A stretch of 63,554 bases of DNA, the filler included, from Stramenopiles sp. TOSAG23-6 (Eukaryota), in the NCBI GenBank assembly GCA_900128565.1. It is 39 parts of 39 records of this genome, joined end to end, with 100 filler letters (N's around TTAATTAATTAA, not from the genome) between each part and the next. Parts side by side here need not be neighbours in the genome. Positions count along the whole stretch, not along the records: positions 3,292 to 4,836 come from LT638898.1; 38 more parts are not named here. One strand, given 5' to 3'. This document shows, in pieces, positions 1-53,781 of this stretch (positions within the stretch are counted from its first letter, which is position 1; every line of letters starts with the position of its first letter). The notes beneath the pieces were generated by a model. The model saw only the letters and a list, made by a program, of their open reading frames with translations. It did no database searches and had not been told where the DNA came from. Both the position numbers and the translations under genes were made by a program.

Positions 1-74
1 TTTTTTTTTGAAAANTGNTANGTACNAAANTTACTATGNAAAAAAAANAAAAAAACTGTGTAATAAAAACGTAC

Positions 75-1435
75 ATAATCTGGGCATTCCAAACGATTTA
101 CAGGTCCACGGACTGTTGTATACAAAAAAATGTACATTTTTTTTTGTTAGGTACAACATTTACTATGAAAAAAAAAAATTAAAAAAATTTAAATATGTTG
201 TCACAAAAATTTAGGTATTTAATTTTGAAAAAAAAAAATGAAAATCTTTGTTAGGTACAAAAATTCGTACGAAAATTGTTTTTTAAAATGATTATGCAAA
301 CATACAAGGTATTGAAAATGATTGTTTTACTAGTATTTGCATACAATATCTTAATTTTCTTGTAATTTGAGCAGAAAATGACAAACAAGAAGAACAAATC
401 ATTGAATTATTGGTATTTATTGTCTGTGTAGTGTTACACGATTCGCATATACAATGAAAAATATATAAAAAGAGAAAAAATTAGGTACAAATTTTCCATA
501 TAAAATTTCAAAAAAAATTTCAAAAAAAAATTTCAAAAAAAATTTTCAAAAAAAATGTCAATAAAAAAAATTTTCAAAAAAAATTTTCAAAAAAAATGAA
601 GTGTAAAAAAAAAAAAATGAAGTGTAAAAAAGTACATCTTCCAGCAGGACAATACAGACATCGAGTAGTAAAATGAGTATTATTTTTTTGTGAATTGTCA
701 GATTTCGTGATTTCAGTAGAACACGAATTACAAAAATGTCTTGGACAAAACCATTCATCCTCTGGAATTTCTGATTCACGTAATCCAATGCATGTAGTAT
801 GAAAAAAAAAAGTCAAATTCAAAATTATATTAGGTATGAAATTCATTATGAAGAAAAAAAAAAAAAAAAAAATGGAAATTCATGATGAAAAAAAAAAATA
901 ATGGAAATTCATCAATAATTTTTTTTTTTTTTTAAATTCATGATGAAAATAAAAATGTACATGCCATATGGTACACTGCACCACAACCAATGTATTCACA
1001 TTCAATTAATTCCCCACCATCACCACACACTCCACAGGATGAAAAATGACCAATAGGTAAAATTATATTAGTATTTCGTGATTTTGATGAATTTCTAATA
1101 TTTCGTGTTGTTGATGATCTTCTTGTATTTCGTGTTTTTGAATCATTACTATTTTTATCAAATATTGAAATTTCAGATTGTTCAGCAAAATTAGGAGTAT
1201 AATGATTTGTGACGTCATTTTTTGCTGCTTTTCGATCAATTGCATTTTGTTTTGTTTGTTGTTCAACAAATTCTTTAAATTCAGGATTTTTTAATTTTTC
1301 CTTAAATTCAGAAATTCCTTTTTTTTTCCATTTTTTCTTTTCCAATTTAGTTAATTTATTCCATTCGATTCCTAAAATTTTTGAAAACTCTGTCACTGGA
1401 ATTGACGGATTTTTACGTCTTAAATCAGCACCTGT
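75..1435 (-). CDS. Partial multi-exon chromatin protein: HMG box, PHD-type fingers and probable bromodomain start
   Basis: HMG-like EFSKILGIEWNKLTKLEKKKW. Spliced PHD CGVCGDGGELIEC..CGAVYHMAC|IGL..EWFCPRHFC. Last exon GPVNRLECPDY is bromodomain-like. Interrupted by family introns. Confidence 0.7.
447..635 (-). mobile_element. Family intron, GT...AT
   Basis: aga t|GTACTTTT...TTGTATAT|gc gaa restores CPAGRCESC. Core TACCTAA is present. Confidence 0.7.
792..960 (-). mobile_element. Family intron, GT...AT
   Basis: gca t|GTACATTT...ACTACAT|gc att restores the PHD HMACIGL. Confidence 0.8.
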
Positions 1436-1646: not shown

Positions 1647-1707
1647 TGTTAGATACAAAATTTTCTATGAAAAAAAAAATCGAAATTCAATTTTGAAAAC
1701 AAACATA

Positions 1708-3385: not shown

Positions 3386-4836
3386 ATATGAGCTCGCTTC
3401 AAGTCATGTAAACTTTTTACGTATTTTTTACTACGCGTACGTGGAGTTGATTGAAACATAATTTTGATTTCTCTACCTAATTTTTGTGTGTTTGAATTTT
3501 TGTTTTTTGTACTTAATTTTTGTGTGTTTGAATTTTGTAACTGTAAACACTCTTTCAACTCAATCGCACAAATTTTATTCTCATATAAAGTTACCTGGTA
3601 CTGTGCATGTATATTTTTGAAATATGCAATACATGTATTTACTTTTGTTAGATAAAAAAGTGAACTACAAACAAAATAGTTACACAATATATAAATGTTC
3701 TATAAAAAAAATATTTAAAAAAAAAAAAATCGAAATTGAAAAAAAAAAAATTGAAATGAGTAATACAATAATAATGGTAAAATACATGACGGATATTTTC
3801 ATCAAGGATAGGCAAATGATTACTCTTGGTATTTTTTATCAAATGACTCATGTTATTATACTGTTTATCTATAGAATGATTTTCGGACATTTTCTCTAGT
3901 GTCTCGATTTCTTGCAGTGCAACTAATTTTGCTATTTCTTGTTGTCGTCTATTTAATGTGAACGATATATATATATATATATTTGTTAGGTACAAAATTT
4001 CGTATAAAAAAAAAAATAAAAAAAAATAAAAATAAAAAAAATAACTTATCTTTCTCAATTTTTGTAACTCTTTTTTCTGTAACGCTGACAAACATCTCTT
4101 CATTGGATTAGGGTTAGGGTTCTTCATTGGGTTTGGGCTACTTTGTGTACTATCCTGTAGACCATGTATTTTGGAAAAATATTTCAAAAAAAAATTTTAA
4201 AATTTGTTAGGTACGAAATTTCGTACGAAAAAAAAAATCGAATTTGAAAAAAAATAAAACATACATGTATATCATTCTGTTCTTTGTGTTGATTCATTTC
4301 ATCAGAATTATCTTTTGTATTGGAATGATAAATACTTGACTCAATTGTTCCATGATGTTTGCTAATCGAATGCACTCCTGTAACATTACTTTCTTTAGTG
4401 TTATGTTCAATATTATGTAAAGCTTTGTTGATTTTATGAACTTCTGCCTCAACGGCATGTTCAATATTATGTTCAATATTATGTATTTCATTCATAGCTT
4501 TATGAGCTTCTGCTGCAACAGCATGTTCAATATTTTGTAAGTCATTCTTAAGTTTATGAGCTTCTGCTCCAACGGCATGTTTAATATTATGTTCAATATT
4601 ATTTAACTCATTATTGATTTTATGTGCTTCTGCTCCAACAGCATGTTCAATATTATGTTCAGTATTATGTATTTCATTCTTAAGTTTATGAGCTTCTGCT
4701 CCAACAGCATGTTCAATATTATGTAACTCATTCTTAGCTTTATGAGCTTCTGCTCCAACAGCATGTTCAATATTATGTATTTCATTCTTAGCTTTATGAG
4801 CTTCTGTTCCAATGGCATGTTCAATATTGTGTTCAA
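3386..4836 (-). CDS. Partial multi-exon protein with His-rich 18/22-aa tandem repeats; unknown function
   Basis: About 7 units of EHAVGAEAHK(A/L)KNE(I/L)HNI at 4407-4836. Exons are joined by family introns. Confidence 0.6.
3607..3785 (-). mobile_element. Family intron (diverged), GT...AT
   Basis: cgt cat|GTATTTT...AAATATACAT|gca cag; phase 0 on both sides. Confidence 0.65.
4164..4264 (-). mobile_element. Family intron, GT...AT (consensus-like)
   Basis: ata cat|GTATGTTTT...TTTCGTACGAAATTTCGTACCTAAC...TCCAAAATACAT|ggt cta. Confidence 0.85.
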
Positions 4837-4936: not shown

Positions 4937-6481
4937 TGTTGGTGATGGCCTTCCTACTGATGATCCACAAGACAATGCTCCCTTTCCGAAGAAGCCGACG
5001 TCATATTCCAAATCTTTATTGCAAACGGTTTTTGAGGAACACTTTATATTAAAAAGATTAGCAATCGTGAGTGGTTGTGGAATCTTCTTTGCTTTATGGA
5101 CAGTTTTCTATAGATTTTCAACCATATTCAACATTTTATTCTGGTTATTTTTCTGGTCTGGATTAGCGTCGTCTTGTTCGATCACAGTTCTATTACTCCG
5201 GCGCTGCGATTGTCGGTGCATACCTGGTATACTTTGGCCAGTTTGAGCTTGTAGCATTTTTTATTGCAGATGATTCCATCAAGCCTGGACCAATAGAAAA
5301 ACTTTTGGCACCATCATTTTGGCGCCCTATTTATACTACTGCATTTTCCGCTGCGGCTGCCCATTGGCTGGTGACAATCTATGAGGACTTTCGGGCGCGT
5401 CGTTTCCTCGGAGTAAAAATCGATTCTGAAATTTCTATGAAAGCAAAAGAATCTGATAAAGAACTTGATGTTGAATCAAATCAAAACGTTGCGGAAAGCT
5501 CAACAAAACGCAGAATATTTAGGTTACATTTTACAAGTGATCCGAATCAGTTCATGTTCAAAGCATACGTATGTTTTATATGAATTTCTAATTTAATTTT
5601 CTTTTCATACGAAATTTCGTACCTAACGATTTTTTTCTGAAATATTTTTTCACAATACATGTGATACACCATCTTCTAACAATTATATGCTATTTGTATT
5701 GTCTTTTTACCCACCGTCTAAGTGGCTTATGTTGTATGGGGCTTTTATTTGAGGCACCCGTGGCTATATTAAACTTTCGAGAATTTGCAGTTATTTTTGA
5801 CGATGAATACAATATTTTTAATTGGTTGTTGTGTTTGCCTTCTGGAGCAACACCTATTTTGCAGTCACTTGCAGATATACAAAAGTTACCTCGAGTTAAA
5901 ATGTTTAGAAAAACTTGGGATTTAATATTTTTTTTAACTGTTTGTTGTCGCTTTAATTGTATCTTAATATACTTTTGGGCTGTGATATGTTGGAGTACAA
6001 AAGTAGCAGAAGAAACTCCTGGTATTGTATACTATATATATCATTTTTTTGGTCTTTGTTTTAGTTTTATAAGTCTTTGGTGGTGGGGCTTGTTGACAAT
6101 GTGGAAGAACCAAGATGAATATAGACTAGTTAAGATGGGCGTGTCTCTCAGTAAAAATAATATATCACTTGATACTATTTCTGAAAGTAAGTGTCCGAAA
6201 GCTTGCTGTAACCGATCTAATATATCTGTTTGTGAGGCTAAAACGTCCCGAGAAAACCTTTTAAATGATGAAAGTTCCACAAAAATAAAAAAATCGCCAA
6301 ACCCATCAAAAACTAGATTTAATAAAACGAAAAATGATAAACAATGCTCTTCTAGTACTACAAAGACAAGTGTCGCCAGAACTAGATGTAGTAAATTATC
6401 TACTGCATTAGTGACAAATCAAGAAGAAGAAGAAGAGTCAGAACCTGATCCTTTGGGTGGATTATGCTGGCTCGGAGATGA
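4937..6481 (+). CDS. TLC (TRAM/LAG1/CLN8)-domain membrane protein, partial
   Basis: Spliced KAY|VIHHLLT...GLLFEAPVAILNFR...RF matches the TLC HH..E.P..N.R pattern. The 5' frame change near 5165 is unresolved. Confidence 0.65.
5569..5660 (+). mobile_element. Family intron, GT...AT
   Basis: gca tac|GTATGTTTT...CACAATACAT|gtg ata cac cat; 92 nt, joins two ORFs in different frames. Confidence 0.85.
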
Positions 6482-9946: not shown

Positions 9947-11358
9947 TCTTGGTTTAGCTTTACATTTAAACCCTTCACAAATAATAGGACCATTATTACA
10001 ACATTGTCATATATATTTAAAACCATCTGCATTACAACGGTTACAAAATGATCGAAGTTCTACAGTATCATGGAATATCACAGAAGATGATTTAGATTTA
10101 TCAATATCTCAAGCGGAGCAACCCTATTCAAAAGTAGCCCATAGTCAAATAGCTAAGATAAAAAGTAAAATTTGGGAATTGTGTAATTGTCTTGAAGAAT
10201 CTGAAAATACTTCTTCCGAATGGGATACTAGTGAAAATGGTACCGTCGCACACACAATCAACACTAACTCTAATGAAGTAAACAATACAAATCGACAACT
10301 TGAAAAGGCTTTGATGTATGTTTTATGGTTTTTCAAATTCGAATGTTTTTTCGAATTCGATTTTTTTTTTTATAAAAATATTGTACCTAACGATTTTTCT
10401 TTCAAATATTTTTCCAAAATACATGAATGCTAGATTTTGTTCAGCAGTATTTGCAACAACTGAAGGTAGCTCATTTGGTCATCAAAATTTAGGATATGAG
10501 GCTACTTTTGCTGAATCATGTTCAATATTACATGTAGGTTTGTATTATGCTGAAAATGATGATTATACGTGTTGTATGGATTGTATCTCTGCATGCTCGT
10601 CGAGTTTTGATGTTTTCAATCTTTGTCCTGCAAATATTGTGGTTCTTTGCACAGTTTTACGGGGGATTTGTTATGAAGCAAAATACGAGGATAATGCAGT
10701 AGCTGTATATTACTTGTATGCATCGGCACTTGAAGCTCTTCAACGATTGCTACCTCAAACACCTCGACATCCAAGTTCAACCTCTACGCTGAATCGTCAA
10801 TCCAGACGAAACCGAAACTCAAACGTTAAGATTCCAGTACGTTTTCAGTATGAATTTCAAATTTATTTTTTTTTCGTACGAAATTTTGTACCTAACAAAT
10901 TTCGAATTTTTTTTTTACAATACATGCACTGAGTAAGAACGATTCTTTCTCTGGAATTCCAGGTGTACATGCACTTGGGCTTGCACTTTGCGTGGCATTA
11001 ATTGAAATCATGCCAAGACTTCCACCACCAGTAATCAAAACTCTGTACGTTTTTTTTCAATTTCGACTTTTTTTTTATTTTTTTTTTTTTTGGTATGAAA
11101 TTTTGTACCTAACAAAAAACAGTAATCAAAAAAAGTTTCCAAAATTACATGCAGCACACTTTTGAATCTCTTGTAGAACTAAAAAATGAACTGCAAAGAT
11201 CTTGTTCTGTGTCTGATATAGTCAGTCATAATAAAATATCAATAATTTTAGCTGCAAGGCAACTACTACTTCAATCTACAAAGTCATTTGAAAAATGGAA
11301 TATTTCGTGTTTTGAAAAGTATATGAAAGTCAAGGATCTATCTGAATTGAAAATTCAT
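9947..11358 (+). CDS. Partial multi-exon helical protein, unknown function
   Basis: Four exons read continuously after removing family introns 10316-10424, 10837-10925 and 11045-11150. Confidence 0.6.
10316..10424 (+). mobile_element. Family intron, GT...AT
   Basis: ttg at|GTATGTTTT...TCCAAAATACAT|g aat; phase 2. Confidence 0.8.
10837..10925 (+). mobile_element. Family intron, GT...AT
   Basis: att cca|GTACGTTTT...ACAATACAT|gca ctg. The upstream exon ends in CA, not AT. Confidence 0.75.
11045..11150 (+). mobile_element. Family intron, GT...AT
   Basis: act ct|GTACGTTTT...CCAAAATTACAT|g cag. Confidence 0.75.
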
Positions 11359-11511: not shown

Positions 11512-12368
11512 ACCCAGTCACTAAACGGTGATGTTTCACTCATACAACCAACATTTTTCTCTAGACATTCCGAATCATTCCATTTAAGATCACATGCAGA
11601 ATCGGACACTCTTGGTGATAATCCTTTACCTACTGTACGTCCTGCGATACCTGGTCCACCTGTGGCTTGTAGCGCTGGGTCGTGAAGATGCCATGTTTCG
11701 CATGAAGGATCATTTCCGCATATTTCTGAAGCTTGAGCCCAATCCCAATATGGCAATGTTACACATGAAAACTCTGAACCTAAATTACGAAGAGCAGTCT
11801 CCATTTCGTGTAAAAACTTACGATGCCAAGGAAGGAAAGAGGATGTTCCATGTGCTTGAGGGCCATTTGTATGGTTTGCATGTATTTTGGAAAAATATTT
11901 AAAATTGTTTTTCGTTAGGTACAAAATTTCGTACGAATTTTTTGTGAAAAAAAAAAAAAAAAAAAAACATACATGAATTATGGTAAAAACATCGTAGATA
12001 TTTCGTTCATCGTCACCACTTGGCGTTTTTTTTAAAGTATTAAAAGCTTTAAAAAGAATGTCTCTTTCTTTACGAGTAAGATCTCGGAAATCTTTTCGAA
12101 TGCGTTGTTTGCAAGCCCAACCAAATGGATCATCAACATCAAGGTTCTCTCGGGAGATCTCTATAGATGTAGACGTTGTCAATTCACGAGAATGTCGAAA
12201 GTTACCACCTTCACCTGGTGTAGAGTTTTGAACGTCACCATCAGAGATATCAGAGATAACGTCGGTCTGTGTTTGGTGTTTTCCTGGATGTGTTTGCGCA
12301 GTTGAAATGTTTTCCATTTCACTAGTCGCTCTACACGCCATTAGTAGTAGATACAATATACGCTTCAT
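11512..12368 (-). CDS. Secreted tyrosinase (type-3 copper protein), 3' truncated
   Basis: Signal-peptide-like MKRILYLLLMA; RIRKDFRDLT; CuA motif AHGTSSFLPWHRKFL; LPYWDW. Confidence 0.9.
11880..11972 (-). mobile_element. Family intron, GT...AT; 93 nt, in frame with no stop
   Basis: att cat|GTATGTTT...CCAAAATACAT|gca aac. The ORF track reads it as VCFFFF..YEILYLT..KYFSKIH. Confidence 0.85.
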
Positions 12369-13053: not shown

Positions 13054-13216
13054 NNNNNNNNNNNNNNNNNNNNNNNNNNNNNNNNNNNNNNNNNNNNTTA
13101 ATTAATTAANNNNNNNNNNNNNNNNNNNNNNNNNNNNNNNNNNNNNNNNNNNNTTTTTTTTCATACGAAATTTCGTACCTAACGATTTTTTTTTGAAATA
13201 TTTTTTCATAATCCAT

Positions 13217-14518
13217 CTGAAGATGTAATTGATTTATTATCAAGTAGTGATGAAGAGAATGACCCTGTGTCTGATTCAAATGATGAAGAGAATGACCCTG
13301 TGTCTGATTCAAATGATGAAGAGAATTCATTACAAAATCAATTTGAAGAGCGTTATGGCTCTTACAGTGAAGATAATGCTATAGAAGGAAAGTATAATAG
13401 TTCTACTGAAGAAGAAGAAGAAGAAGAAGAAGAAGATGCTACTGATGATGGATCAGATTTGGATGATATTCAGTCTGCTACTTCCTGGGGTGATATTCAA
13501 TCTCTTATTTTCCCACCAGAAAATGAAATGTTCAATAATTTTACGGATAAAGATATTGAACAAATCTGTCGTGCATTACCGCTAGACAGGAATTTAGATG
13601 AAGAAGAAATTGTAGCTTTCAACAAACGTGGGAAAATCCCAATAACACGTGAAATGATGGGATGTTTGTTAGATAATCAATGGCTTAAAGATGAAGTGAT
13701 GAATTATTTCTTGGAACTTATAGCAGCCCAATCACCTAGTCCTTCAAATCCTTCAAGTGATATCATTGGTGAAACAACAAAATCACTAAATGATACAAGC
13801 CTTCCGTCTGTATACATGTATGTTTTATTTTTTTTCAAATTCGATTTTTTTTCGTACGAAATGCTGTACCTAACGATTTTTTTTTGAAATATTTTTCCAA
13901 AATACATCCATAACACGCATTTTTATTCAAAACTTTTGGAGCATGATCAATACACGTATACAAATGTTCGTAGGTGGACACGAAAAGTAAAAGGAACAAT
14001 TTTTGCGTATGATAAAGTTATTATTCCAATTCATTTAGGAATTCACTGGGTAATGGCAGTAATGTACGTTTTCAAAATAGAATGTGTTTTTTTTCTTGGT
14101 AGAAAATTTCATACCTAACAAAACATTTTTACAAAAAAAATATTTTCCCAAAATTACATAAACTTTCGTGATAAACGATTAGAATATTATGATTCGATGG
14201 CAGCTGTAGATGCTGCTCATAAAGCAGCAGGTAAGTATTGTTTGGAACATTTACAGACTTATCTTAGAGATGAAAGTTTGCACAAAAGAAAAGTNNNNNN
14301 NNNNNNNNNNNAATGAAGAATTTGATTTTTATATTCCTACCAAAGATGAAATCCCCCAACAAGAAAATACCGTTGATTGCGGTGTGTTTGCTCTCAAATT
14401 TGCTGAATTGTGTAGTAGAGACCAAACATTATATGATTCTTTTTCTCAAGAAGATTTTCCACGTTTTAGAAGAGAAATAATGCTACAAATCCTTCAGTCA
14501 AGTGATGAAATTCCTTAA
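13217..14518 (+). CDS. SUMO protease (Ulp1/SENP, peptidase C48), 5' partial
   Basis: WLKDEVMNYF; spliced [53 protein letters not shown]. Confidence 0.95.
13818..13907 (+). mobile_element. Family intron, GT...AT
   Basis: tac at|GTATGTTTT...TCCAAAATACAT|c cat. Contains an in-frame TGA. Confidence 0.9.
14064..14159 (+). mobile_element. Family intron, GT...AT
   Basis: gta at|GTACGTTTT...CAAAATTACAT|a aac restores HWVMAVINF. Contains an in-frame TAA. Confidence 0.9.
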
Positions 14519-16336: not shown

Positions 16337-16964
16337 NNNNNNNNNNNNNNNNNNNNNNNNNNNNNNNNNNNNNNNNNNNNTTAATTAATTAANNNNNNNN
16401 NNNNNNNNNNNNNNNNNNNNNNNNNNNNNNNNNNNNATTTTTTTTTCATACGAAATTTCGTACCTAACGATTTTTTTTTTGAAATATTTTTTCACAATAC
16501 ATTGCGTAGAGGCGATCTCGAACACTCTCTATCTGAACAACATTATCAAGCTGCACTTCGTGCAAAAAATGATGATATTAGGCGATTTCGTGTAGAATTA
16601 GATGGTATCCTTGAAGTCATTTCAACGCTTCAACAACAAGGCATTCATATACCTTGTTTTAATTGAGAGTTTCTCTGGAAATAAAACTAAAAAATTTTGT
16701 GCTTTTTTTCCCTTTCAACACGAAATAAATGGAAAATTTAATCTCAAAATTCGCAAAAAAAACAATGACTCGTCGTCAATTTTAATTGGTGCCATGACAT
16801 TGTCAATTTGTCATGTGTGTTTATGGTACCGGTACCCCAAGTTGAACATAAATACTTGATAATACTTATACTTTCTAGAAGCGTGTGAAATTTTGAGTAG
16901 CATCGAGACACTTATTTTTCGAATCGTCGTATTCTTTTACTTTTCGTTTTTTACATTTTGAGCA

Positions 16965-17886
16965 ATGCGGGAAAAGTATATCCGAAAAAAGATGCTTCAA
17001 AAGTCCAAATTCTTTAGTCGAACTTTAGCTTGGACAGTGTGTATTACTGTAGTAATTTCATTTGTAGTATCTTTTTGGAAAACTTCGATTAATACTTCAC
17101 CCATATCACTATTTAGTATATTTTCTGGTCATGATGGTTCAGGAATTGCTTCAAATAATGATAGACGACTATACCTTGAAAACGAAGTCAATTCAGCCAT
17201 TCGTACTTCTGGCGTCGGTAGTACTTTGCATAAGAGTGCATCTTGTGATTTAGGTACATTCTTGTTTTCAGTTCATGAGTATGATAAAGGCATTGATCAT
17301 TTTGAGGTTGCTGGTGTTGAATGCGCAGGGGTAGAGTTTGCCTCCAGAATGGCTGGACATTTTTATGATAATTACGGAAGACGTAATCCTGTTACTTCAT
17401 TTGTAAAAGGGCTTTCAAATAGTGACAAGGTGTTGTCCTTTTTGTCAATGTTTCATCAAATTTCACAAAAAACACCAATTCCCAATGAAGCTTGGGATGC
17501 TTTACACTCAGGAATTTCTGCAGACGCTGTAGGTATTCGAAGTTGTTTATTACTTGCTGGACTTTTTCAACACAGTACGTTTTTAATTTTTTATCTAATT
17601 TTTTTTTTTGGTTTCATACGAAATTTTGTACCTAACGATTTTTTTTAAAATTTTTTTAAAATATTTTTTTCATTTCAATTTCGAATGTATTGTTTTTTTT
17701 TATAGTAAATTTTGTACCTAACGATTTTAATTTTTGAAATATTTTTCATGATGAATGTTCTCATCGGATAACTTCTTTATCAAGTGTTTTGCTACATGAT
17801 ATTGAAAGATGTGTACTCATTGTAAAAGCTCCATTTAATCCGACGTCTGATGTATTTGAAGCCGGTATTGCTTTAGTAGAATCTAA
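16965..17886 (+). CDS. Type II membrane protein, unknown function, partial
   Basis: N-terminal TM segment; the frame continues across family intron 17575-17756. Confidence 0.6.
17575..17756 (+). mobile_element. Family intron with duplicated core, GT...AT
   Basis: cac a|GTACGTTTT...ATGAAT|gt tct; two AAATTTTGTACCTAAC copies. Confidence 0.7.
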
Positions 17887-32683: not shown

Positions 32684-32860
32684 NNNNNNNNNNNNNNNNN
32701 NNNNNNNNNNNNNNNNNNNNNNNNNNNTTAATTAATTAANNNNNNNNNNNNNNNNNNNNNNNNNNNNNNNNNNNNNNNNNNNNAAAAAATTTGTTAGGTA
32801 CAAAATTTCGTATGAAAAATAAATTCGATTTTTTTGTTTAAAAAAAAAAATAAAACATAC

Positions 32861-34260
32861 ATTATACGGTTTCTGAGGCAAGTAAAATACACCTGATGAA
32901 AGTCCATGACTATTATTGTTGTTAAATGCACCATCGCCAATATTTGTAATTGGTTTTGTAATCGAACCTCCAAGTGGAATTGGCCAGAGTGAACCTAAAC
33001 ATCTAAATATTGAAGATTTTCCTGAACCATTACATCCTGTCAAAAGCATGTTTGTGCCATGCTCAATAGAAAAGGTAAGATCTTTTACAAGTAATACTCC
33101 AGTTGGTGTAAAAACTTGAACATTATCAAATGCAATACGGTTTTGATTACTTTTTATTAGGTTAGGGTTAGGGTTAGGGTTAGGGTTGTGTGTCTGAATA
33201 TTTTTTCCATTGGATTCATTTTGGAACAATAATTTTGAATTTGATGACATTTGAGGATTAGGGTTAGGGTTCGCATTTTCATGAGCTGCTCGACACTTCA
33301 AATTTTGTAATGTATCAAATAAATCAGTGAGTCGTTGAGCTGGGCCTTTCATTGCATGTATTGTGAAAATATATATTTTTTTTTGATTAAGAAAAACAAT
33401 TTATTGGGTACAAAATTTTCATATTTTCATAGTAAAAAAAAATAAAATTCATATTATACACAAAAAATATTTTTTTTTTTTTTTTTTTTTTGGTTGTTGG
33501 TTAGGTATGAAATTTCGTATGAAAAAAAAAATTAAATATATTTTATACACGTACATGAAGTTGACGCAAAACTTTGACAATAATTCCCTGAGCTGACATG
33601 GCTCTAATAAAGTATTCTGTAATAAAACGAACTCGTGAGAAAAGTTCTCCAGTGTCTGACACAGTGTTGCCATTTCTATGTAATACCTCCAAATATTGGC
33701 GTTTTGCAACTGTCGATGTTGGTGAAATAAACCGACCGATAATATATTGTGAAAAATATTTTTGTTTTGTAAAATTTGTTAGGTATGGAATTTTTATAAA
33801 AAAAAAAATAAATTCGAAATTGAAAAAAATAAAAGATACATCACAGCTTGAGCAAAACTATAGCTACCGTATTCAAATAAAGCAGAGGTAATACATTGAT
33901 ACATGTATTATGAAAAAAATATTTCAAAAAACTTCGTTAGGTACAAAATTTCGTATGAAAAAAAATAAAAAATAAAAAAAAATAAAACATACCTTGTTAT
34001 TTTTTCTACAAAGTCATTACAATATTTTAGAAATATTTGCCATAAATTATCTAGAATATATTTTGGAAAAATATTTCAAAAAAAAAAATTTTGAAAATTT
34101 GTTAGGTACAAAATTTCGTACGAAAAAAAAATTCATACAAAAAAAAATTTAAAAAAAAAAAAAAAAAAACATACATGCATAATCCAATTATTATGACAAT
34201 GTGAGACTGACCGTAGAATATGAAGCATATATGTTTTTGTATCACTTGGTGAAAGTGGTG
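32861..34260 (-). CDS. ABCD (peroxisomal-type) ABC transporter, internal exons
   Basis: IAFDNVQVFTPTG..LLTGCNGSGKSSIFRCLGSLWP..FYLPQKPY. Six family introns or intron ends in 1.5 kb. Confidence 0.88.
33356..33554 (-). mobile_element. Family intron, GT...AT
   Basis: ctt cat|GTACGTG...CACAATACAT|gca atg gives VLRQLH-AMKGPAQRL. Confidence 0.8.
33742..33839 (-). mobile_element. Family intron, GT...AT
   Basis: gtg at|GTATCTTTT...CACAATATAT|t atc. Confidence 0.8.
33903..33992 (-). mobile_element. Family intron, GT...AT
   Basis: aca ag|GTATGTTTT...CATAATACAT|g tat. Confidence 0.8.
34056..34174 (-). mobile_element. Family intron, GT...AT
   Basis: tgc at|GTATGTTTT...CCAAAATATAT|t cta. Confidence 0.75.
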
Positions 34261-34841: not shown

Positions 34842-35117
34842 TCAAAAAAAGTGTTAGGTACAAAATTATCTACGGAAAAAAAAACAGGATAACCCGAGGA
34901 ATAAAAGTCTCGCGAGAATGCATTATGGTCATCGAAAGTATACTTTGAGGCTATTTAAATGCTCAGTGATGACTTGGTCTAAGTGTATGAAGTTCATGAC
35001 AAAAAAAAAGAAGTCATTCTATGTATACTTGAGGTGGCTATTTCGGCTATTTCAAAAAAAAAAATTCCTATTTTTTTGTTTTTCGTACGTAATTTTGTAC
35101 CTAAGAGATTTTTTTAA
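34842..35117. repeat. Inverted pair of the intron-family core motif (about 50-bp arms) in non-coding DNA
   Basis: Left arm 34842-34889 AAAAAAAGTGTTAGGTACAAAATTATCTACGGAAAA..CAGGA. Reverse complement of right arm 35066-35117 AAAAAAATCTCTTAGGTACAAAATTACGTACGAAAA..TAGGA. Confidence 0.7.
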
Positions 35118-45068: not shown

Positions 45069-45570
45069 TTATGCTTCATCATCGTCTTCATCAAAAGCAG
45101 CTACTTCACCAAAAGCATCATTAAATCCATTTTTTGACAATAAATCAACATTTTTGCTATTATTTTCATTCTTTGCTGGTTTTGGTGGCGGTGGCGGCAT
45201 TACGTCATTTTTGTCTTTGTTACCCGGTTCTGTAGATGTCTGTTGTTTTGCGTCTTGGATTTCTTTTTTTTGTTTCTTTCGTAATAAAAGTTTCTCTTCC
45301 AATGCCTTTGCATGTATTTTGGAAAAATATTTCAAAAAAAAATTTTGAAACATTTGTTAGGTACAAAATTTTTATAAAAAAAAAAATTTCAAAAAAAAAA
45401 AATTTTGAAAATTTGTTAGGTACAAAATTTACTATAAAAAAAAAATTTTAGTTAAAAAATTAAAAAAAAACTAAAACATACATGTTTAATTTGTTCTTCC
45501 ATCTTTGCTTTACTGACAGTAAATTGTTGTTGTCCTTCCAATTTATCAGGATCTTTCCACAACATCATTA
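45069..45570 (-). CDS. Unknown protein, last two exons
   Basis: EEQIKH|AKALEE joined across family intron 45312-45481. Confidence 0.55.
45312..45481 (-). mobile_element. Family intron with duplicated core, GT...AT
   Basis: aaa cat|GTATGTTTT...TCCAAAATACAT|gca aag; two TTTTGTACCTAAC copies. Confidence 0.8.
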
Positions 45571-45912: not shown

Positions 45913-47250
45913 ATAATAATACAACAACAAATCGAGTGTGTATTTCCTCTGAAGAGAATGAAGATAATACAACAGGTTTGTCAAACATCTCCAAACTATC
46001 CAATGAAACAAATAATAAAAATAATAAAAATAATAAAAATAATAAAAAAAACACGAAAAAACGACAACGTGACGAAGAAATGTCTGATTTTGAAATTGTT
46101 GACAAAAAACAAAAAAATCAAAAAAATCAAAAAAATCAAAAAAATCAAAAAAAAGTACATTATAGCATCCCTCAATACCCAAATAAAATTACTGCTGTAG
46201 GTTGGGAAGATGTAACAATGAGTATTGGTTCCGTATGGGCAGAAATTTTATCATTACAAAAACAATTGTATGTTTTTATCATTTTTCAATTTGGAATTTA
46301 TGTCAAAATTTTTTTTTTTTTTTTTTTCAAAAATTTTTTTTTTTTTTTTTTTTAAAATTTTTTTTTTTTTTTTTTTCTTTCAAAAAAAATTTTTTTTTTT
46401 TTTTTTCGTACAAAAAAATTTTTTTTTTTTTTTCGTACAAAAAAAATTTTTTTTTTTTTTACACTTTTTTTCAAAATTTTTTTTGAAACATAAAAATTTA
46501 CAAAATTGTACAACAAATATGAAATATTGTGCAATACTATAGATATACACCAATGGAGTTACCACTAAGTTCATGGAATTGGCAAAGATCTTTATCACAA
46601 GGACTATCTAAAAAAGTTGAAGTTTTTTTCAAATTAAAAATTCAAAAAAATTCAATACATCAAAAAAAAAATATTTTGAAATTATCAAAGAAAAACATCA
46701 ATATCAATGATGAATGTCATGATGCTGAAGAAGAAATACATGCTGCTGAAAGTGTTGTACATGGGATTAAAGATAGAAAACGTCATGTACATATTATTTT
46801 TTTCATACGAAATTTTGTACCTAACGATTTTTTTTTTCAAAAAAAAATTTTGTACGAAATTTTGTACCTAACAATTTTTTTTTCAAAAATTTTGAAATAT
46901 TTTTTTTACAATACAGTATCATTCAAAAAGATCTCAACGGAGAAAAACCATTGCTCAATCGAACCCTAACCCTAATAATTCGAATACTTCTATTCAATCT
47001 ATTCAGATTAACCCTAACCCTAGAGTATCTAATTTTGGTGTAGAGTGTTCGAGTAGTACAATGACGTCATCGAGTAGTTGTGATGATTTGAACCCTAACC
47101 CTACAACAAAACGGTATGCACGAAATCCACCTATATTTTCTATGAAATTTAAAATTCCTCCACTTTCGAATAACCCTAACCCTAGTAGTACACAGTCAAC
47201 TACATTGAAGAAATCAAAAAAATCAATTCAAATAGTTGGAGTCAAATCAT
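45913..47250 (+). CDS. Unknown low-complexity multi-exon protein
   Basis: Exons between family introns; NK/NQK and NPNP repeats. Confidence 0.45.
46787..46916 (+). mobile_element. Family intron ending in AG
   Basis: cgt cat|GTACATATT...ACAATACAG|tat cat; duplicated core. Confidence 0.75.
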
Positions 47251-47258
47251 GTTTGTTT

Positions 47259-47293
<35 letters not shown>

Positions 47294-47453
47294 AATTTTT
47301 TACCTAAAAAAAAAAAAAAAAAAAAAAAAAATTTTTTTTTTTTTAAATTCTTTNNNNNNNNNNNNNNNNNNNNNNNNNNNNNNNNNNNNNNNNNNNNTTA
47401 ATTAATTAANNNNNNNNNNNNNNNNNNNNNNNNNNNNNNNNNNNNNNNNNNNN

Positions 47454-47506
47454 AACCCGCACTGTCTGATTGGAAGTCAGATTATCTACCAATTAATAAT
47501 ACCCGC
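47454..47506 (-). tRNA. trnG: Mitochondrial tRNA-Gly(UCC), 3' truncated
   Basis: Anticodon arm TCTGA-CTTCCAA-TCAGA. Confidence 0.85.
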
Positions 47507-47510
47507 AATT

Positions 47511-49162: not shown

Positions 49163-49619
49163 GAGCCAGTTCAATTTTCTACTTTAAGTTCTAATTCACA
49201 CACACAACCTATTTATTCATTATCAATGTATGTTTTTTTTTTTCAATTTTGAATTTATGAATTTTTTTTTTAATACGAAATTTTGTACCTAACAGATTTT
49301 TTTTTTTGACATATTGACACGAAATAAATGGTAGGCACAGCTGCTGCCAATAATCTTGTGTCTGTTAGTACATCAGGTCAATTGTGCAAATGGGTAACAT
49401 CATCCTTAAATGCACCGATTTCGTGTAACTCATTAAAGTACAAAAAAAAAGTCGGTATTGAAAATGATGTTGCAGTGACGTCATTTTGTTTTCCATCTGG
49501 TGAAAATAGTCGATATTGTTGTGGTAGTGAAACAGGCGAGTTGTATACATCATCGTTGGATGAAGCAAAAATGGAATTAACTAAATATCCCACGTATTTT
49601 TTCATTTTCATAGAAAATG

Positions 49620-49933: not shown

Positions 49934-50498
49934 CATAGAATTTTTTTTTTTTTTTTTTCATAGAAATTTTTGTACGTAACAAATATATCAACGTTTTTGA
50001 AATATTGTTCCACAATATATTGCAATATCATCCAAATGTGCAAGGTAAAAACACATCATCTGGTGTTTTTGATTTACTACTAACTACTTGTATGTTGGTC
50101 AATCAACAGAATCCTAACACTGGTTTTATCATTTTTTACAATCAATTTTTTTTTTTAATTTTTTTTTGGTAGATAATTTTGTACCTAAGATTTTTTTTTT
50201 TAAATTTTGAGTTATTTTCACACAAATGCAGCTGTAGATTGGACATGTAAACTTTGGAATCTCAGTCAGAATGATAGACCATTATATGTTTTATTTTTTT
50301 TAATTTTTTTTTGTTTGGTTTTCGTACGAAATTTCGTACCTAACAAATTTTAACAAAAAAAAATATTTTTCACAATATATATATTCTTTTCAAGCTCATG
50401 ACTATTTACTTGATGTGAAATGGTCACCCATGCATCCTTCATTATTTGCTACCGGTGATGCTAGTGGCAATGTCAATTTTTGGAATATAAATGTCGAT
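49163..50498 (+). CDS. Cytoplasmic dynein intermediate chain (WD40), internal exons
   Basis: Spliced HTQPIYSLSMVGTAAANNLVSVST..GHFGPVTALQYHP..LLTTSVDWTCKLW..PLYSF..DVKWSPMHPSLFA. Seven family introns or intron ends. Confidence 0.9.
49228..49329 (+). mobile_element. Family intron, GT...AT
   Basis: tca at|GTATGTTT...GAAATAAAT|g gta. Confidence 0.85.
49594..49708 (+). mobile_element. Family intron (core degraded), GT...AT
   Basis: ccc ac|GTATTTTT...AAAATAAAT|g ggt. Confidence 0.65.
49840..50020 (+). mobile_element. Family intron, GT...AT
   Basis: gcg t|GTACGTTT...CACAATATAT|tg caa. Confidence 0.85.
50090..50231 (+). mobile_element. Family intron ending in AG
   Basis: act t|GTATGTT...CACAAATGCAG|ct gta gat tgg. 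Confidence 0.85.
50284..50380 (+). mobile_element. Family intron with ATATGTTT 5' end (exact register ambiguous)
   Basis: cca tt|ATATGTTTT...CACAATATAT|a tat tct restores RPLYSF. A +4 shift gives an equivalent GT...AT intron. Confidence 0.75.
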
Positions 50499-50807: not shown

Positions 50808-51735
50808 TAAGCTATACAACATCTAAAAAATGTTCAAAATTACTTATAGACGCCGGTGCTGATCTATCAAAGATTCATTTTCGTGCATCTTTAAAGAATC
50901 AAAACATGAATGTATCTTTTATTTTTTTTTTTTAAACAAAAAAATTCGAATTTATTTTTTTTTGAAAATTTTGTACCTAACAATTTTTTTAGATTTTTTT
51001 TGAAATATTTTTCCAAAATACGTGGACAAATTGGACAAAATAATTTTTTATATTCTTCATTTGATGAAACAATAACAGAAATGAATGGATTTGACTTATT
51101 ACGACTGTATTTAATAACACAAAGAAAATTAAAACATTTGAGAATAAAACGAAATAGTTTGAATGTATTAGAACAATCAAAAAAATATAGTACATCTCAA
51201 ACGATGCATTCAAAAATGAGGTATCAAAATAGATTTAGTACGTTTTATTTTTTATTTTTTTTTGAGTTTTTGAATTTTTTGAATTTTTTTTCATACGAAA
51301 TTTTGTACCTAACAAAAAACAAATTTAAAAAAAAAAAAATTCACAATATATGCAATACACCAGTCATCTATGATGTATTTGATGATAGGTGGACAAAAAA
51401 AGAAGTTCAAAAACGTATTCAACAATATACAAAGAACCAAAACAACACAAGAAATCCTAACTTTAATCAACAATATCCACATTTTTCACTTCGAGTAGGT
51501 AAAGGTATTACATCTGAATATCGTGATTATAATCATTCAAAGTCTTTCAAAAGACATTTAAATAGTAGTTCTAGAAGTAGTATCATGAAACGACACTTAT
51601 ATAGTTCTAGAAGTAATACAAAACATTTAAAACAATATTTGCGTTCATTTGCACATGATCAAAATCAAAATCAAAATGTACATCATATAGAAAACAAAAA
51701 AATAAAAGAAATAAAAGAAATAAAAGAAACCAAAA

Positions 51736-52116: not shown

Positions 52117-52326
52117 GTACGTTTTTTATTTCAATTTTTTTTTTGAAATTAAATTTTGTTTTTTTTTCGTACGAAATTTTGTACCTAACATATTTTTTTT
52201 TTTTAATATTTTTTTTTTCTCCATNNNNNNNNNNNNNNNNNNNNNNNNNNNNNNNNNNNNNNNNNNNNTTAATTAATTAANNNNNNNNNNNNNNNNNNNN
52301 NNNNNNNNNNNNNNNNNNNNNNNNAT

Positions 52327-52425
52327 GTATGTTTTCAGGATCAATTTTAAATTCATTTTTTTTTCGTACGAAATTTTGTACCTAACAAAAACTTTTACTA
52401 AAAAAAATATTTTCCCAAAATACAT
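52327..52425 (+). mobile_element. Family intron, GT...AT
   Basis: at|GTATGTTTT...CCCAAAATACAT|g aaa. The upstream exon is lost at the contig edge. Confidence 0.75.
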
Positions 52426-53781
52426 GAAAGCTACGGATAAAATGAATCGTCTTATGAAAAATGCAGGAAAAAAAATCACCTCACATGTGGGAAAGAATAA
52501 AGATGTTCATTTTTCTTCTAAAACTAAAAGAATGTATGTTTTCATCAATTCTAACTAATTATAGATAATGACGTACCTCAATGTTTTTTTTAATCTACAT
52601 TTTTTTTATAGGAAATTTCGTACCTAACAAATTTGAAAAAAAAAATATACTTTTTTACAATGTGTGGTCGCAACATTTGAAAAAGATTCACATAATTTGA
52701 AACAAGTAACTAGAAGTGGTTTGTCTCTGTTGATGCAAAGTCTTCAGCACGTAGAAAACAAAGCGAGTCTTCGAATTGTTCATTCAACAATATATCAGAA
52801 ACATGTCGCTGTCAAGCATGTACATTTTNAAAATTGAATTTCAAATGTATATATATTTTTCATACTAAATTCCGTACCTAACGATTTTTTTTCGGTAAAA
52901 AAAAAATATATTTTTTCACAATACAGGGACATGTAGAAGAAGATCCCGATCCAACAAAATCAAGTGCAACTCAGCAAAATCTCGCTGCAGCTTCAATTAT
53001 TGTTAATGCTGTGATGGATTTCAATACGGAAGTACGTTTTCATTATGAATTTTAAATTTCTTTTTTTTTATTCAAAACAAAATATACTAAACAAATTTCA
53101 AATTTGATATAATTCCCCAAAATACATGTATTCTACTCTATGGACTGTGCTGCGGAAATTGTACTAGAAGATGGCAAAAATGTTGTAGTAGATACGACAG
53201 ATGATATCTATGGAAAAGAAGCTTCAGAACTTGTATCTGAAGTTGCTGAAGCACTCACTGATGATATATCTGTTGCTGGTACAATGTGTAAAATGGCAAG
53301 CATTGCCTCGTGTGGTACAACCACTGTAGTTGTAGGTATTGGCAAAAGCGCGATACATTTGAAAAATCGTTCAGAATGGGCGTCAGGCGATATCATTCAA
53401 CAAGGGTTTATGTACAGTTTACTTCCTCGAGAGTTATCAGATGTAATTAAAGTTGCTAAAAGTGTAAGCAAAAGCACAAAAGAAAAGGCAACCAATTTTT
53501 ATCATCAAGGTCTGGAAAGTTTTCAAAAAATAAAAAAACAAACCTGGTTTCGCAAGGGTAAAGCAGTAGCTGCTGCAAAAGATCATGAAACACCTAAAAC
53601 AACGAAAAACAATGCGACTGATAGTATCGTACATGAAATGGATGGTGTAACAAAAGAAGCTGATGTAGTTGTGAATGTTGCAACAAAAGTGATTCTAAAG
53701 TGGACCAAAGTCTGGTGTATTTTACGACAAGACACCTTTGCTGTATTTCAGGAAAAGCCAAAAAAAGATAACGCAGAAGAT
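52426..53781 (+). CDS. Multi-exon protein reaching the start of a PH domain
   Basis: KWTKVWCILRQDTFAVF. Continuous frame after removing introns 52534-52665, 52820-52926 and 53031-53127. Confidence 0.6.
52534..52665 (+). mobile_element. Family intron ending in GT
   Basis: aga at|GTATGTTTT...ACAATGTGT|g gtc. Confidence 0.6.
52820..52926 (+). mobile_element. Family intron ending in AG
   Basis: aag cat|GTACATTTT...CACAATACAG|gga cat. Confidence 0.8.
53031..53127 (+). mobile_element. Family intron, GT...AT
   Basis: acg gaa|GTACGTTTT...CCAAAATACAT|gta ttc. Confidence 0.8.

What the first reader, a model, noticed from the sequence alone, without database searches (positions are those of the whole stretch)
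4160..4270. Transposon-like ends: inverted termini and AT|G target preference
A typical junction is AT-[GTATGTTTT...AAAATAC]-AT. The ends GTAT(G)TTT and AAAATAC are imperfect inverted repeats. The exon ends in AT in 21 of 33 complete copies and usually resumes with G. Inference: a MITE-like element duplicates a 2-bp AT target, supplies the donor, and co-opts the duplicated AT as the acceptor, analogous to AG/GT co-option by described introners. A reverse-splicing route into AT|G proto-splice sites is an alternative.
Basis: partly seen in the sequence, partly recalled or inferred. Interest (0 to 1): 0.8.

Follow-up and report, generated by a model that had tools for sequence, protein, structure and literature searches.

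The report
Mobile intron family ending in AT
Genes of an uncultured marine eukaryote are peppered with near-identical introns of about 100 bases that appear to be cut out at GT...AT instead of the usual GT...AG, most likely because a small mobile element created them.

Summary
Window 4164-4264 (minus strand) is one copy of an intron family with 52 loci in 22 of 39 short contigs. Each copy has a donor GTAYGTTTT, a 16-nt palindrome abutting CTAAC, and a 3' block ending AATACAT.

- The upstream exon ends in AT at 24 of 36 junctions, against a 10-12% background.
- The intron ends in AT at 30 of 36 junctions.
- Reading frames (22 of 25 complete copies) fit removal of GT...AT, not GT...AC.
- Gap-free alignment of three pyruvate-kinase junctions to homologs agrees. 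The acceptor is therefore AT, even where an AG lies 5 nt upstream.
- Copies in unrelated genes share spacer sequence (up to 60 of 62 nt), so the family spread by copying.

The "AT target-site duplication" is not proven. There is no locus-specific match between flank and intron end. Six copies sit at non-AT sites yet still end in AT. The inverted termini are short (at most 7 of 9).

DNA insertion and RNA-mediated insertion both remain open. No RNA evidence could be obtained. Verdict: an introner family with a non-canonical AT acceptor, a new variant of a known kind.

The parts
4164..4264 (-). focal family intron, 101 nt, GT...AT
   Evidence: phase 0; frame open 191 codons upstream and 171 downstream if GT..AT is removed, 13 if GT..AC
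4265..4266 (-). AT at the end of the upstream exon
4256..4264 (-). donor block GTATGTTTT
   Evidence: nine positions each conserved in 32-36 of 36 copies; position +4 is T in 24 and C in 12
4211..4226 (.). 16-nt perfect palindrome GTACGAAATTTCGTAC
4206..4210 (-). CTAAC branch-site-like motif directly after the palindrome
   Evidence: the branch-site role is inferred
4164..4174 (-). 3' block CCAAAATACAT with terminal AT (4164-4165)
113..305 (-). complete copy with two cores, ends ACAG; exon end TT
5569..5660 (+). complete copy; exon end AC (synonymous to AT)
10316..10424 (+). complete copy; exon end AT
10837..10925 (+). complete copy, GTACG type; exon end CA (not derivable from AT by a synonymous change)
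11045..11150 (+). complete copy, GTACG type; exon end CT
11880..11972 (-). complete copy in a tyrosinase gene; exon end AT
13818..13907 (+). complete copy in a Ulp1/SENP-type protease gene; exon end AT
14064..14159 (+). complete copy in the same protease gene, GTACG type; exon end AT
17575..17756 (+). complete copy with two cores, ends GAAT; exon end CA
33356..33554 (-). complete copy with two cores; exon end AT
33903..33992 (-). complete copy; exon end AG
34056..34174 (-). complete copy, ends ATAT; the frame test is ambiguous here
45312..45481 (-). complete copy with an internal tandem duplication of the core unit
46787..46916 (+). complete copy, donor GTACAT, ends ACAG, two cores
49228..49329 (+). 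complete copy, ends AAAT; exon end AAT
50912..51023 (+). complete copy, ends ACGT
51238..51351 (+). complete copy, GTACG type, ends ATAT; exon end TA
52327..52425 (+). complete copy at a contig start
52534..52665 (+). complete copy, ends GTGT
52820..52926 (+). complete copy, donor GTACAT, ends ACAG
58946..59039 (+). pyruvate kinase intron 1; AT|...AT|G splits a Met codon
59202..59343 (+). pyruvate kinase intron 2, GTACG type
59444..59588 (+). pyruvate kinase intron 3; exon ends CAC, intron ends CATAGTACAT; the AG 5 nt upstream is not used
62771..62872 (+). complete copy, ends ACAC
1..74 (-). 5' part of a copy cut by the window start; exon end AT
1647..1704 (-). 5' part (donor GTTTGT) in a mitochondrial-carrier gene, cut by the contig end
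17887..17975 (+). 5' part, donor GCACG; 60 of 62 nt identical to copy 10837; exon end AA
18076..18160 (-). 5' part cut by the contig end
30376..30436 (-). 5' part; coding context uncertain
32784..32860 (-). 5' part cut by the contig end, in an ABC-type ATPase gene
47251..47353 (+). 5' part (donor GTTTGT) cut by the contig end
50090..50232 (+). diverged copy; 3' end uncertain (AAAT|G or GCAG|)
52117..52224 (+). 5' part cut by the contig end
53782..53845 (+). 5' part cut by the contig end
55414..55466 (+). 5' part cut by the contig end
9870..9946 (+). 3' part at a contig start, ends ACAT|T
13154..13216 (+). 3' part at a contig start, ends CCAT|C
16437..16502 (+). 3' part at a contig start
19555..19611 (-). 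3' part at a contig end
34261..34315 (-). 3' part at a contig end
37679..37734 (+). 3' part at a contig start
39154..39208 (-). 3' part at a contig end
45828..45912 (+). 3' part at a contig start
49946..50020 (+). 3' part; 5' end not placed
50304..50380 (+). copy whose donor is unclear (ATATGTTTT or GTTTTA), ends ATAT
60268..60323 (-). 3' part at a contig end
34826..34895 (-). core-plus-3'-block fragment without splice ends, in a stretch with no long ORF
35040..35110 (+). core fragment in the opposite orientation, about 200 nt from the previous one

Best explanation
The piece at 4164-4264 is one copy of a family of short (89-199 nt) spliceosomal introns that multiplied by copy-and-paste, an introner family.

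Every copy carries its own donor (GTAYGTTTT) and a 16-nt palindrome that abuts a U2-type branch motif (CTAAC). It also has a T-rich tail and a fixed 3' block ending AATACAT.

The transcript loses exactly GT...AT, so the last intron base is T where almost all known introns have G.

Copies sit preferentially at (C)AT|G sites, so the flank and the intron end form a 2-3 nt direct repeat and the two ends form a short inverted repeat.

The most likely origin is DNA-level insertion of a small non-autonomous element at AT, with one AT then serving as the acceptor. This is analogous to introners that carry one splice site and take the other from the duplicated target.

Shown here: the family, the sense-strand position in genes, the exact length removed, the non-AG acceptor and the AT|G bias. 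Inferred: the use of CTAAC as branch site, splicing by the major spliceosome, the DNA-level route and the duplication.

My confidence by part:
- copied family: about 0.9
- GT...AT removal: about 0.8
- DNA insertion with AT duplication: about 0.4-0.5
For: **Family and copying**
- 61 profile hits merge into 52 loci in 22 of 39 contigs.
- 19 of 76 internal contig ends lie in or beside a copy, as expected if the assembler broke at a high-copy repeat.
- 18 full copies have mean pairwise identity 71% (range 58-91%).
- Copies in different contigs share spacer sequence outside any splicing signal. Over the first 62 nt, 10837 and 17887 share 60 of 62, 13818 and 53782 share 59 of 62, and 5569 and 18160 share 57 of 61. 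The median over all pairs is 68%.
- No other similarity links the contigs.
- One further copy, with the same ACAT|GT...ACAT|GG ends, lies in an independent metagenome contig, L001.

**Exact removal of GT...AT**
- In 22 of 25 complete copies the downstream frame stays open for at least 20 codons if GT..AT is removed. With GT..AC this holds for 9 of 25.
- Three pyruvate-kinase junctions align to five homologs without a gap. One residue is left for each split codon (AT|G), and intron 3 gives AIH|GQIEG (PK_C).
- 16 of 25 tails between the last CTAAC and the 3' junction hold no AG.
- In pyruvate-kinase intron 3 an AG 5 nt upstream would break the frame.

**AT|G bias**
- 24 of 36, 30 of 36 and 21 of 36, as in the observation check.
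- 0 of 5 canonical-looking GTAAGT donors have an AT flank.
- Six of the 12 non-AT flanks differ from AT by one synonymous change, so up to 30 of 36 could once have been AT.

**DNA route**
- The termini are more complementary than interior pieces.
- Two core fragments lie in opposite orientation in a stretch without long ORFs.
- Published precedent, seen as passages and one full section: most introner families show DNA-transposon marks; some carry the donor and take the acceptor from the duplication; an exonic TAC gives the AC acceptor in Fritillaria.
Against: - There is no RNA evidence.
- A duplication is not demonstrable. Within-locus flank/end matches equal random pairing at -1 and -2.
- Where the intron ends in AG, GT or AC, the flank does not follow.
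- Six of 36 copies (10837, 11045, 17575, 17887, 33992, 51238) have flanks that only non-synonymous changes could derive from AT. The five of them whose 3' end lies in the window still end in AT, and five of the six are of the GTACG/GCACG type.
- The most similar pair (10837 and 17887) has flanks CA and AA.
- The inverted termini reach at most 7 of 9 with one gap, which published criteria would call ambiguous.
- Every copy with recognisable splice ends lies in sense to flanking ORFs. Selection explains this, but an RNA route predicts it directly.
- I know of no DNA-transposon superfamily with an AT duplication (recalled, not tested).
- The window over-samples the family, because its contigs are short and often break at copies.
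Confidence: 0.5

Rival explanations
1. Same family and same GT...AT splicing, but the mobile unit is the intron itself, including its terminal AT. It is inserted without any duplication. The route could be reverse splicing of the excised intron into other transcripts followed by reverse transcription and recombination, or another duplication-free route. AT|G is then a preferred or best-tolerated site.
For: - Six of 36 copies lie at non-AT flanks that synonymous change cannot explain. The five of them whose 3' end lies in the window still end in AT, so there the AT belongs to the element.
- There is no locus-specific flank/end match.
- All copies with splice ends are in sense within genes.
- Each copy carries a complete set of splicing signals.
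- The flank preference M-A-T|G mirrors the ordinary M-A-G|G exon consensus except for one base (the consensus is recalled).
- Fungal introner-like elements without duplications or inverted ends have been interpreted this way (passages).
Against: - It gives no reason for inverted termini or for the central palindrome.
- Core fragments lie in both orientations in a stretch without ORFs.
- The cited survey concludes that most introner families move as DNA.
- The near-universal AT flank of GTATG-type copies (23 of 24, counting synonymous drift) looks more like a rule of insertion than a mild preference.
Confidence: 0.3
2. Not mobile. These are ordinary, possibly old introns of a lineage whose splicing signals have become very long and strict, and the similarity reflects constraint only.
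For: - The best-conserved blocks are the donor, the branch region and the 3' block.
- Mean pairwise identity is only 71%.
Against: - Subfamilies share spacer sequence between the blocks: 57-60 of 61-62 nt in introns of unrelated genes.
- Contigs break at copies.
- Canonical GTAAGT...YAG introns coexist in the same genes and contigs, for example 2094-2185 and a CAG|GTAAGT donor after 14159. The strict signals are therefore not a general requirement.
- Differences at CG sites of the consensus are mostly TG or CA.
Confidence: 0.05
3. The family is spliced by a minor (U12-like) spliceosome, or is read as AT...AC in the copies with an AT flank.
For: - The donor is long and rigid, and equals the U12 donor RTATCCTTT at 7 of 9 positions (recalled consensus compared).
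- GT-AT is among the rare non-canonical U12 boundary pairs in Physarum, where such introns also multiplied with inverted ends and a TA repeat (passages).
- With an AT flank, AT...AC gives the same message.
Against: - Position +5 is G in 33 of 36 and +6 is T in 35 of 36, where U12 donors have C-C or C-T.
- No TCCTTAAC-like motif lies near the 3' end (consensus).
- The CTAAC lies 24-145 nt from the 3' end, median 38.
- 12 of 36 copies lack the AT flank, and pyruvate-kinase intron 3 cannot be read as AT...AC.
Confidence: 0.05
4. The pieces are removed from DNA, like ciliate internal eliminated sequences, and not from RNA.
For: They are short, sit inside coding sequence at high density, are bounded by a dinucleotide repeat of which one copy stays, and have inverted ends.
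Against: - A strict GTAYGT donor and a CTAAC motif, always in sense, point to the spliceosome.
- Nuclear ORFs are long under the standard code.
- Ordinary introns are present.
Confidence: 0.03

Closest known systems
Introners that carry one splice site and take the other from the target-site duplication (Micromonas and Aureococcus, Huff et al. 2016; the Chrysochromulina type in Gozashti et al. 2022, PMC9860276; seen as passages, Huff only as cited there)
   Same: Many near-identical short introns in unrelated genes of a marine protist. The element brings the donor, the acceptor coincides with a repeat of the flank, and the message length is unchanged.
   Different: The acceptor here is AT, not AG. 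The repeat is only 2-3 nt and invariant, so a duplication cannot be shown. No nucleosome-linker or population data exist for this case.
Non-canonical introns of Fritillaria borealis (Henriet et al. 2019, as summarised in review PMC11282704, section 6, read in full)
   Same: Transposon-like introns whose acceptor dinucleotide repeats the end of the upstream exon (TAC gives AC there, AT gives AT here). Canonical GT-AG introns coexist as a minority. AT occurs there as an intron end (AG-AT).
   Different: Fritillaria donors are non-GT (AG-AC, AG-AT) and very diverse. Here the donor is a strict GTAYGT, with a yeast-like CTAAC motif and a single sequence family.
Expanded U12-type introns of Physarum polycephalum (Larue, Elias and Roy, preprint 10.1101/2020.10.12.336362; passages)
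   Same: A long rigid donor beginning RTAT, short inverted ends with a dinucleotide repeat (TA), a proposed transposon origin, and GT-AT among the tolerated boundaries.
   Different: Those introns have C at donor position +5 and a TTTGA motif 10-12 nt from the 3' end. GT-AT makes up 17% of the 0.8% of introns with non-canonical boundaries there, whereas here AT is the rule (30 of 36).
Introner-like elements of ascomycete fungi (van der Burgt et al. 2012, as cited in passages)
   Same: Complete introns copied into new sites without demonstrable duplication, all in sense, with reverse splicing proposed.
   Different: The fungal elements use GT-AG and lack inverted ends.
Repeated non-canonical introns of Amoebophrya (Farhat et al. 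2021; search listing, and review section 6)
   Same: A marine protist with multi-copy introns that have inverted ends, flank repeats and non-canonical boundaries.
   Different: Those repeats are 3-5 nt and variable, and the boundaries are highly variable. Here there is one fixed GT...AT pattern.

Membership tests
Introners (multi-copy intron-generating elements) | Introns of unrelated genes similar over their whole length | tested here: met
   52 loci; up to 60 of 62 identical bases including spacers
Introners (multi-copy intron-generating elements) | Each copy is removed exactly, restoring the reading frame | tested here: met
   22 of 25 frames; three pyruvate-kinase junctions gap-free against homologs. 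Inferred from DNA and protein only, with no RNA
Introners (multi-copy intron-generating elements) | Recent gain: positions not shared with relatives, or presence/absence alleles | not testable with these tools
MITE-like DNA transposon | Target-site duplication shown by a locus-specific match of the two flanks | tested here: inconclusive
   matches equal random pairing at -1 and -2, and are 13 against 9.9 at -3; six copies contradict a simple AT duplication
MITE-like DNA transposon | Terminal inverted repeats | tested here: inconclusive
   mean 5.9 of 9, at most 7 of 9 with one gap; above the null of 3.3 but short
MITE-like DNA transposon | Copies in both orientations and outside genes; an autonomous partner with the same ends | tested here: inconclusive
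   only fragments without ends lie outside ORF context; a partner cannot be sought without the assembly
Canonical U2-type GT-AG intron | GT (or GC) donor | tested here: met
   G at +1 in 36 of 36; T at +2 in 35 of 36
Canonical U2-type GT-AG intron | Branch-site motif upstream of the acceptor | tested here: met
   CTAAC-like motif in all 25 complete copies, 24-145 nt from the 3' end; its use as branch site is not tested
Canonical U2-type GT-AG intron | AG acceptor | tested here: not met
   AG in 3 of 36; 16 of 25 tails hold no AG
U12-type intron | Donor RTATCCTT (recalled consensus) | tested here: not met
   +5 is G in 33 of 36; +6 is T in 35 of 36
U12-type intron | TCCTTAAC-like branch motif 10-20 nt from the 3' end (recalled) | tested here: not met
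   consensus of the last 25 nt: GAAATATTTTTCCAAAATACAT
Ciliate-type internal eliminated sequence | Absent from somatic DNA | not testable with these tools
   no read-level DNA data could be laid

The most novel reading that the evidence does not exclude
In this uncultured marine eukaryote a mobile element has installed a third splice rule, GT...AT. It covers most introns of the genes sampled here. On this reading the spliceosome routinely accepts U as the last intron base. It finds the site not by scanning for AG but through a fixed 3' block (AAAATACAT) that is the inverted repeat of the 5' junction (AT|GTAT). That would imply either an adapted second-step or U2AF-type recognition, or pairing of the intron ends.
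Probability: 0.4. Interest if true: 0.85.

Novelty: new variant of a known kind. Interest (0 to 1): 0.7.

Why it matters
Introners are the best current explanation for bursts of intron gain. The few known cases with non-canonical boundaries show that the spliceosome can be reshaped by the elements it has to remove.

A single, strict GT...AT family beside ordinary GT...AG introns in the same genes would be a clean natural experiment. It bears on how the 3' splice site is chosen: the last base is U, and an AG 5 nt upstream is ignored.

There is also a practical consequence. Gene finders that allow only GT-AG would break most genes of this organism, and surveys based on annotated introns would miss the family.

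Tried and rejected
**RNA evidence (not obtained)**
- It did not complete four times.
- So no read-level RNA or DNA evidence exists here.

**Tools and data not available**
- No whole genome is held.

**Searches that added little**
- Pattern scans for the core gave one metagenome contig with a true copy, one match in a bacterial MAG that I take for chance and did not examine, and none in viral contigs.
- Protein searches meant to find transcript-derived copies or a lineage found none above 79% or 73%. They found only an unnamed 100% identical cox1. The lineage stays unknown.
- Pfam on short single exons gave nothing.
- A PDB search with the 36-residue exon after 14159 found nothing useful.

**Structure and covariation**
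- The RNA fold of the focal copy pairs the ends and the palindrome, but it is no better than shuffles (z = -1.46).
- Donor +4 (T or C) shows no compensating change opposite it, so I dropped an RNA-helix argument.

**Readings rejected**
- GT...AC with both ATs kept (frames).
- AT...AC.
- AG acceptors nearby.
- A 4-bp CATG duplication, because C at -3 is present in only 14 of 36.

**Other checks**
- The self-comparison of contigs found no paralogs or alleles that could show an empty site.
- Supplementary tables of the introner surveys, which list families per genome, were closed and may bear on whether this family is already catalogued.
Full report
**What the window is.** The 63,554 bases are not one locus. 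They are a chain of 39 contigs of 1515-1546 nt, sorted by length and joined by N44-TTAATTAATTAA-N44 linkers. G+C is about 30%. The genes are eukaryotic: kinesins, 14-3-3, a mitochondrial carrier, tyrosinase, pyruvate kinase, a Ulp1/SENP-type protease and an Mtr4-type helicase. No whole genome is held. Near-identical DNA is present in small runs labelled organism A, in seawater metagenomes and, in small shares, in marine metatranscriptomes. The source is therefore an uncultured or little-studied marine eukaryote. I did not establish its lineage.

**The observation.** At 4164-4264, read on the minus strand, the sequence is ...ATACAT|GTATGTTTTATTTTTTTTCAAATTCGATTTTTTTTTTCGTACGAAATTTCGTACCTAAC...GAAATATTTTTCCAAAATACAT|GGT. 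The same build recurs throughout the window.
- A fuzzy search for the core gives 57 hits.
- A profile made from 10 copies gives 61 hits, which merge into 52 loci in 22 of 39 contigs.
- 19 of 76 internal contig ends fall in or beside a copy. This is what an assembler does at a high-copy repeat. It also means the window over-samples the family.

**Junction counts.** I fixed 36 5' junctions and 36 3' junctions by coordinate. I left out five copies whose ends I could not place.
- The donor is G36 T35 A34 Y36 G33 T35 T33 T35 T32, each out of 36.
- The upstream exon ends in AT in 24 of 36. The background is 9.7%, or 11.6% directly before GT, giving p about 1e-14.
- The intron ends in AT in 30 of 36: CAT 24, TAT 4, AAT 2. 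It ends in AG in 3, GT in 2 and AC in 1.
- The next exon begins with G in 21 of 36, against 18% background.

**What is removed.** That is not the case.
- In 22 of 25 complete copies the downstream frame stays open for at least 20 codons if GT...AT is removed. With GT...AC this holds in only 9 of 25.
- The three exceptions are a copy at a contig start with no upstream frame, a copy with two equally open upstream frames, and the last pyruvate-kinase intron, where 19 codons lead to the true stop.

The pyruvate-kinase contig (58806-60323) gives the sharpest test. Its four exon translations align to five homologs without any gap at the three junctions. One column is left for each split codon at junctions 1 and 2 (AT|G, Met). 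Junction 3 reads AIH|GQIEG, against AVHGQIEG and AIHG in the homologs.
- Introns 1 and 2 have no AG between CTAAC and the junction.
- Intron 3 ends CATAGTACAT, and use of its AG would shift the frame.
- Intron 3 also has a CAC flank, so it cannot be read as an AT...AC intron.

The exon between the two protease introns aligns to SENP1 up to ...HWCLAV. The next exon continues with a YYDS motif that I recall from that family; could not confirm it.

I conclude that the acceptor is AT, with about 80% confidence. What is missing is RNA.

**Ordinary introns coexist.**
- The mitochondrial-carrier gene has ACA|GTAAGT...TTTTACAG|GG at 2094-2185, in the same gene as a family copy at 1704.
- The 14-3-3 gene has AAG|GTAAGT and ...ATATAG|.
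- The protease gene has CAG|GTAAGT after its two family introns.
- 63073-63215 is GTAAGT...CTATAG.
- L001 has AAG|GTAAGT.

None of these five donors has an AT flank: 0 of 5 against 24 of 36, p 0.008. The AT flank and the AT acceptor are therefore properties of the family, not of splicing in this organism in general.

**Copied, not merely constrained.**
- The 18 full copies are 58-91% identical pairwise, mean 71%.
- Subfamilies share the spacers between the signal blocks. Over the first 62 nt, 10837 and 17887 share 60 of 62, 13818 and 53782 share 59 of 62, 5569 and 18160 share 57 of 61, and 32860 and 50912 share 54 of 60. All these pairs lie in different contigs and genes.
- Nothing else links the contigs.
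- At consensus CG sites the variants are mostly TG or CA: donor +4/+5 has CG 6 and TG 13; the left edge of the palindrome has CG 15, CA 18 and TG 2. This is the usual decay pattern of repeated DNA.
- Seven of 25 complete copies carry a second core, 45312-45481 being a clear case. By eye this is an internal tandem duplication of about 50-60 nt.

An introner family is thus well supported, at about 0.9.

The survey by Gozashti et al. 2022 (passages) points out a limit. When all introns of a family are preceded by the same dinucleotide, a duplication cannot be told from a preferred site without duplication, unless at least one position matches within loci but not between them.
- Here within-locus matches equal random pairing: 15 against 16.1 at -1, 18 against 18.4 at -2, and 13 against 9.9 at -3.
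- Where the intron ends in AG, GT or AC the flank is still AT or TT.
- Of the 12 non-AT flanks, six differ from AT by one synonymous change (305, 5569, 30436, 50090, 52117, 59444). They are compatible with an original AT that drifted.
- The other six are not (10837, 11045, 17575, 17887, 33992, 51238; the script's 'synonymous' label for 17887 is wrong, since AA versus AT is a second codon position). The five of these whose 3' end lies in the window all end in AT. In those copies the terminal AT must have come with the element.
- Five of these six have GTACG or GCACG donors: 5 of 12 against 1 of 24, p 0.01. The rule 'AT flank' is therefore nearly absolute for GTATG-type copies and loose for GTACG-type copies.
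- The closest pair, 10837 and 17887, has flanks CA and AA.

**The inverted ends.** The first 9 nt and the 9 nt before the final AT are more complementary than random interior pieces: mean 5.9 against 3.3, with 7 of 9 in 10 of 25 copies. Including the flank, AT|GTAT is the exact complement of the last six bases ATACAT in 7 of 25 copies. This is short, and because the copies are related it counts as one observation. It could be a transposase footprint or an RNA helix that brings the 3' end to the 5' junction. I found no compensating changes. The whole-intron fold is not better than shuffles.

**Orientation and location.** Every copy with recognisable splice ends lies in sense to flanking long ORFs. 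Fragments that hold only the core occur near gene ends (6636, 44895, 58626). Two more lie in opposite orientation within about 200 nt of each other in a stretch without long ORFs (34826-34895 and 35040-35110). This leans slightly towards DNA-level presence outside genes, but these fragments have no ends.

**Most likely mechanism.**
- Shown: a copied family; exact excision of GT...AT as judged from frames and homology; the AT|G bias.
- Inferred: the donor GTAYGT and the CTAAC motif (24-145 nt, median 38, from the 3' end) are used by the major spliceosome. The 3' site is specified by the fixed block ...AYAATACAT rather than by the first AG or the first AT. Each tail holds 3-20 AT dinucleotides before the one used.
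- For the route of spread I put DNA insertion at AT, with duplication and co-option of the second AT, at about 0.4-0.5. A duplication-free route, such as reverse splicing, I put at about 0.3.
- Minor-spliceosome, AT...AC, DNA-elimination and 'constraint only' readings are each unlikely, for the reasons given under the rivals.

**Comparison with what is known.** Three literature searches found introner surveys and the known non-canonical cases, but no family with a GT...AT rule. The library is partial and supplementary tables were closed, so I cannot say the family is uncatalogued.
- The nearest parallels are introners that carry the donor and take the acceptor from the duplication.
- In Fritillaria an exonic TAC precedes introns that end in AC.
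- In Physarum, U12-type introns with RTATCTT...AAGATAT ends and a TA repeat multiplied, and GT-AT is a rare tolerated pair.

The present case differs in three ways: one strict family, a canonical-looking donor and branch motif, and an AT acceptor as the rule.

**Verdict.** This is a new variant of a known kind, with interest 0.7.

Noticed in passing
4108-4121, 22131-22144, 22301-22316, 22353-22367, 33160-33187, 33258-33271, 40978-40993, 46962-46975, 47009-47022, 47091-47103, 47171-47184: Eleven short runs of the telomere-like hexamer (TTAGGG/CCCTAA, two or more units) lie inside long ORFs of unrelated genes. They are read in frame mostly as NPNP, and once each as FRVRV, LLGLG and LTLTL. L001 also has such motifs in non-coding DNA. 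This is far more than chance would give for 11-mers in 59 kb.
   Followed up: partly
47454-48977: Mitochondrial contig with five tRNA genes (Cys, Pro, Tyr, Arg, Glu), part of nad4 and part of cox1. The cox1 frame is open only if TGA is read as Trp (four TGA codons). An unnamed protein on a 26.7-kb public contig is 100% identical to the cox1 piece.
   Followed up: partly
46787-46916 and 52820-52926: The only two copies with donor GTACAT (A at +5) are two of the three copies that end in AG (2 of 2 against 1 of 23, p 0.01). They may be one subfamily, so this is not independent evidence of a donor-acceptor link.
   Followed up: partly
34826-34895 (minus strand): A family fragment without splice ends is flanked on both sides by the same eight bases (TTCCTCGG). 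This could be chance or a different kind of insertion.
   Followed up: no
59650-59890: Downstream of the pyruvate-kinase stop codon there are about five tandem copies of a unit of about 45 nt.
   Followed up: no
4270-4836 (minus strand): The exon upstream of the focal intron encodes a histidine-rich protein made of about 10 tandem units of roughly 20 residues (NIEHAVGAEAHK...). It has only weak coiled-coil-type Pfam matches below the cut-offs.
   Followed up: no
17575-17756, 33356-33554, 45312-45481, 46787-46916, 59202-59343, 113-305, 59444-59588: Seven of 25 complete copies carry a second core (palindrome plus CTAAC). At least in 45312-45481 and 46787-46916 this looks like an internal tandem duplication rather than a nested insertion.
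   Followed up: partly
6636-6655, 44895-44914, 58626-58645: Core-like motifs without intron ends lie just upstream or downstream of ORFs. They may be in untranslated regions, as decayed copies or as a separate use of the palindrome.
   Followed up: no
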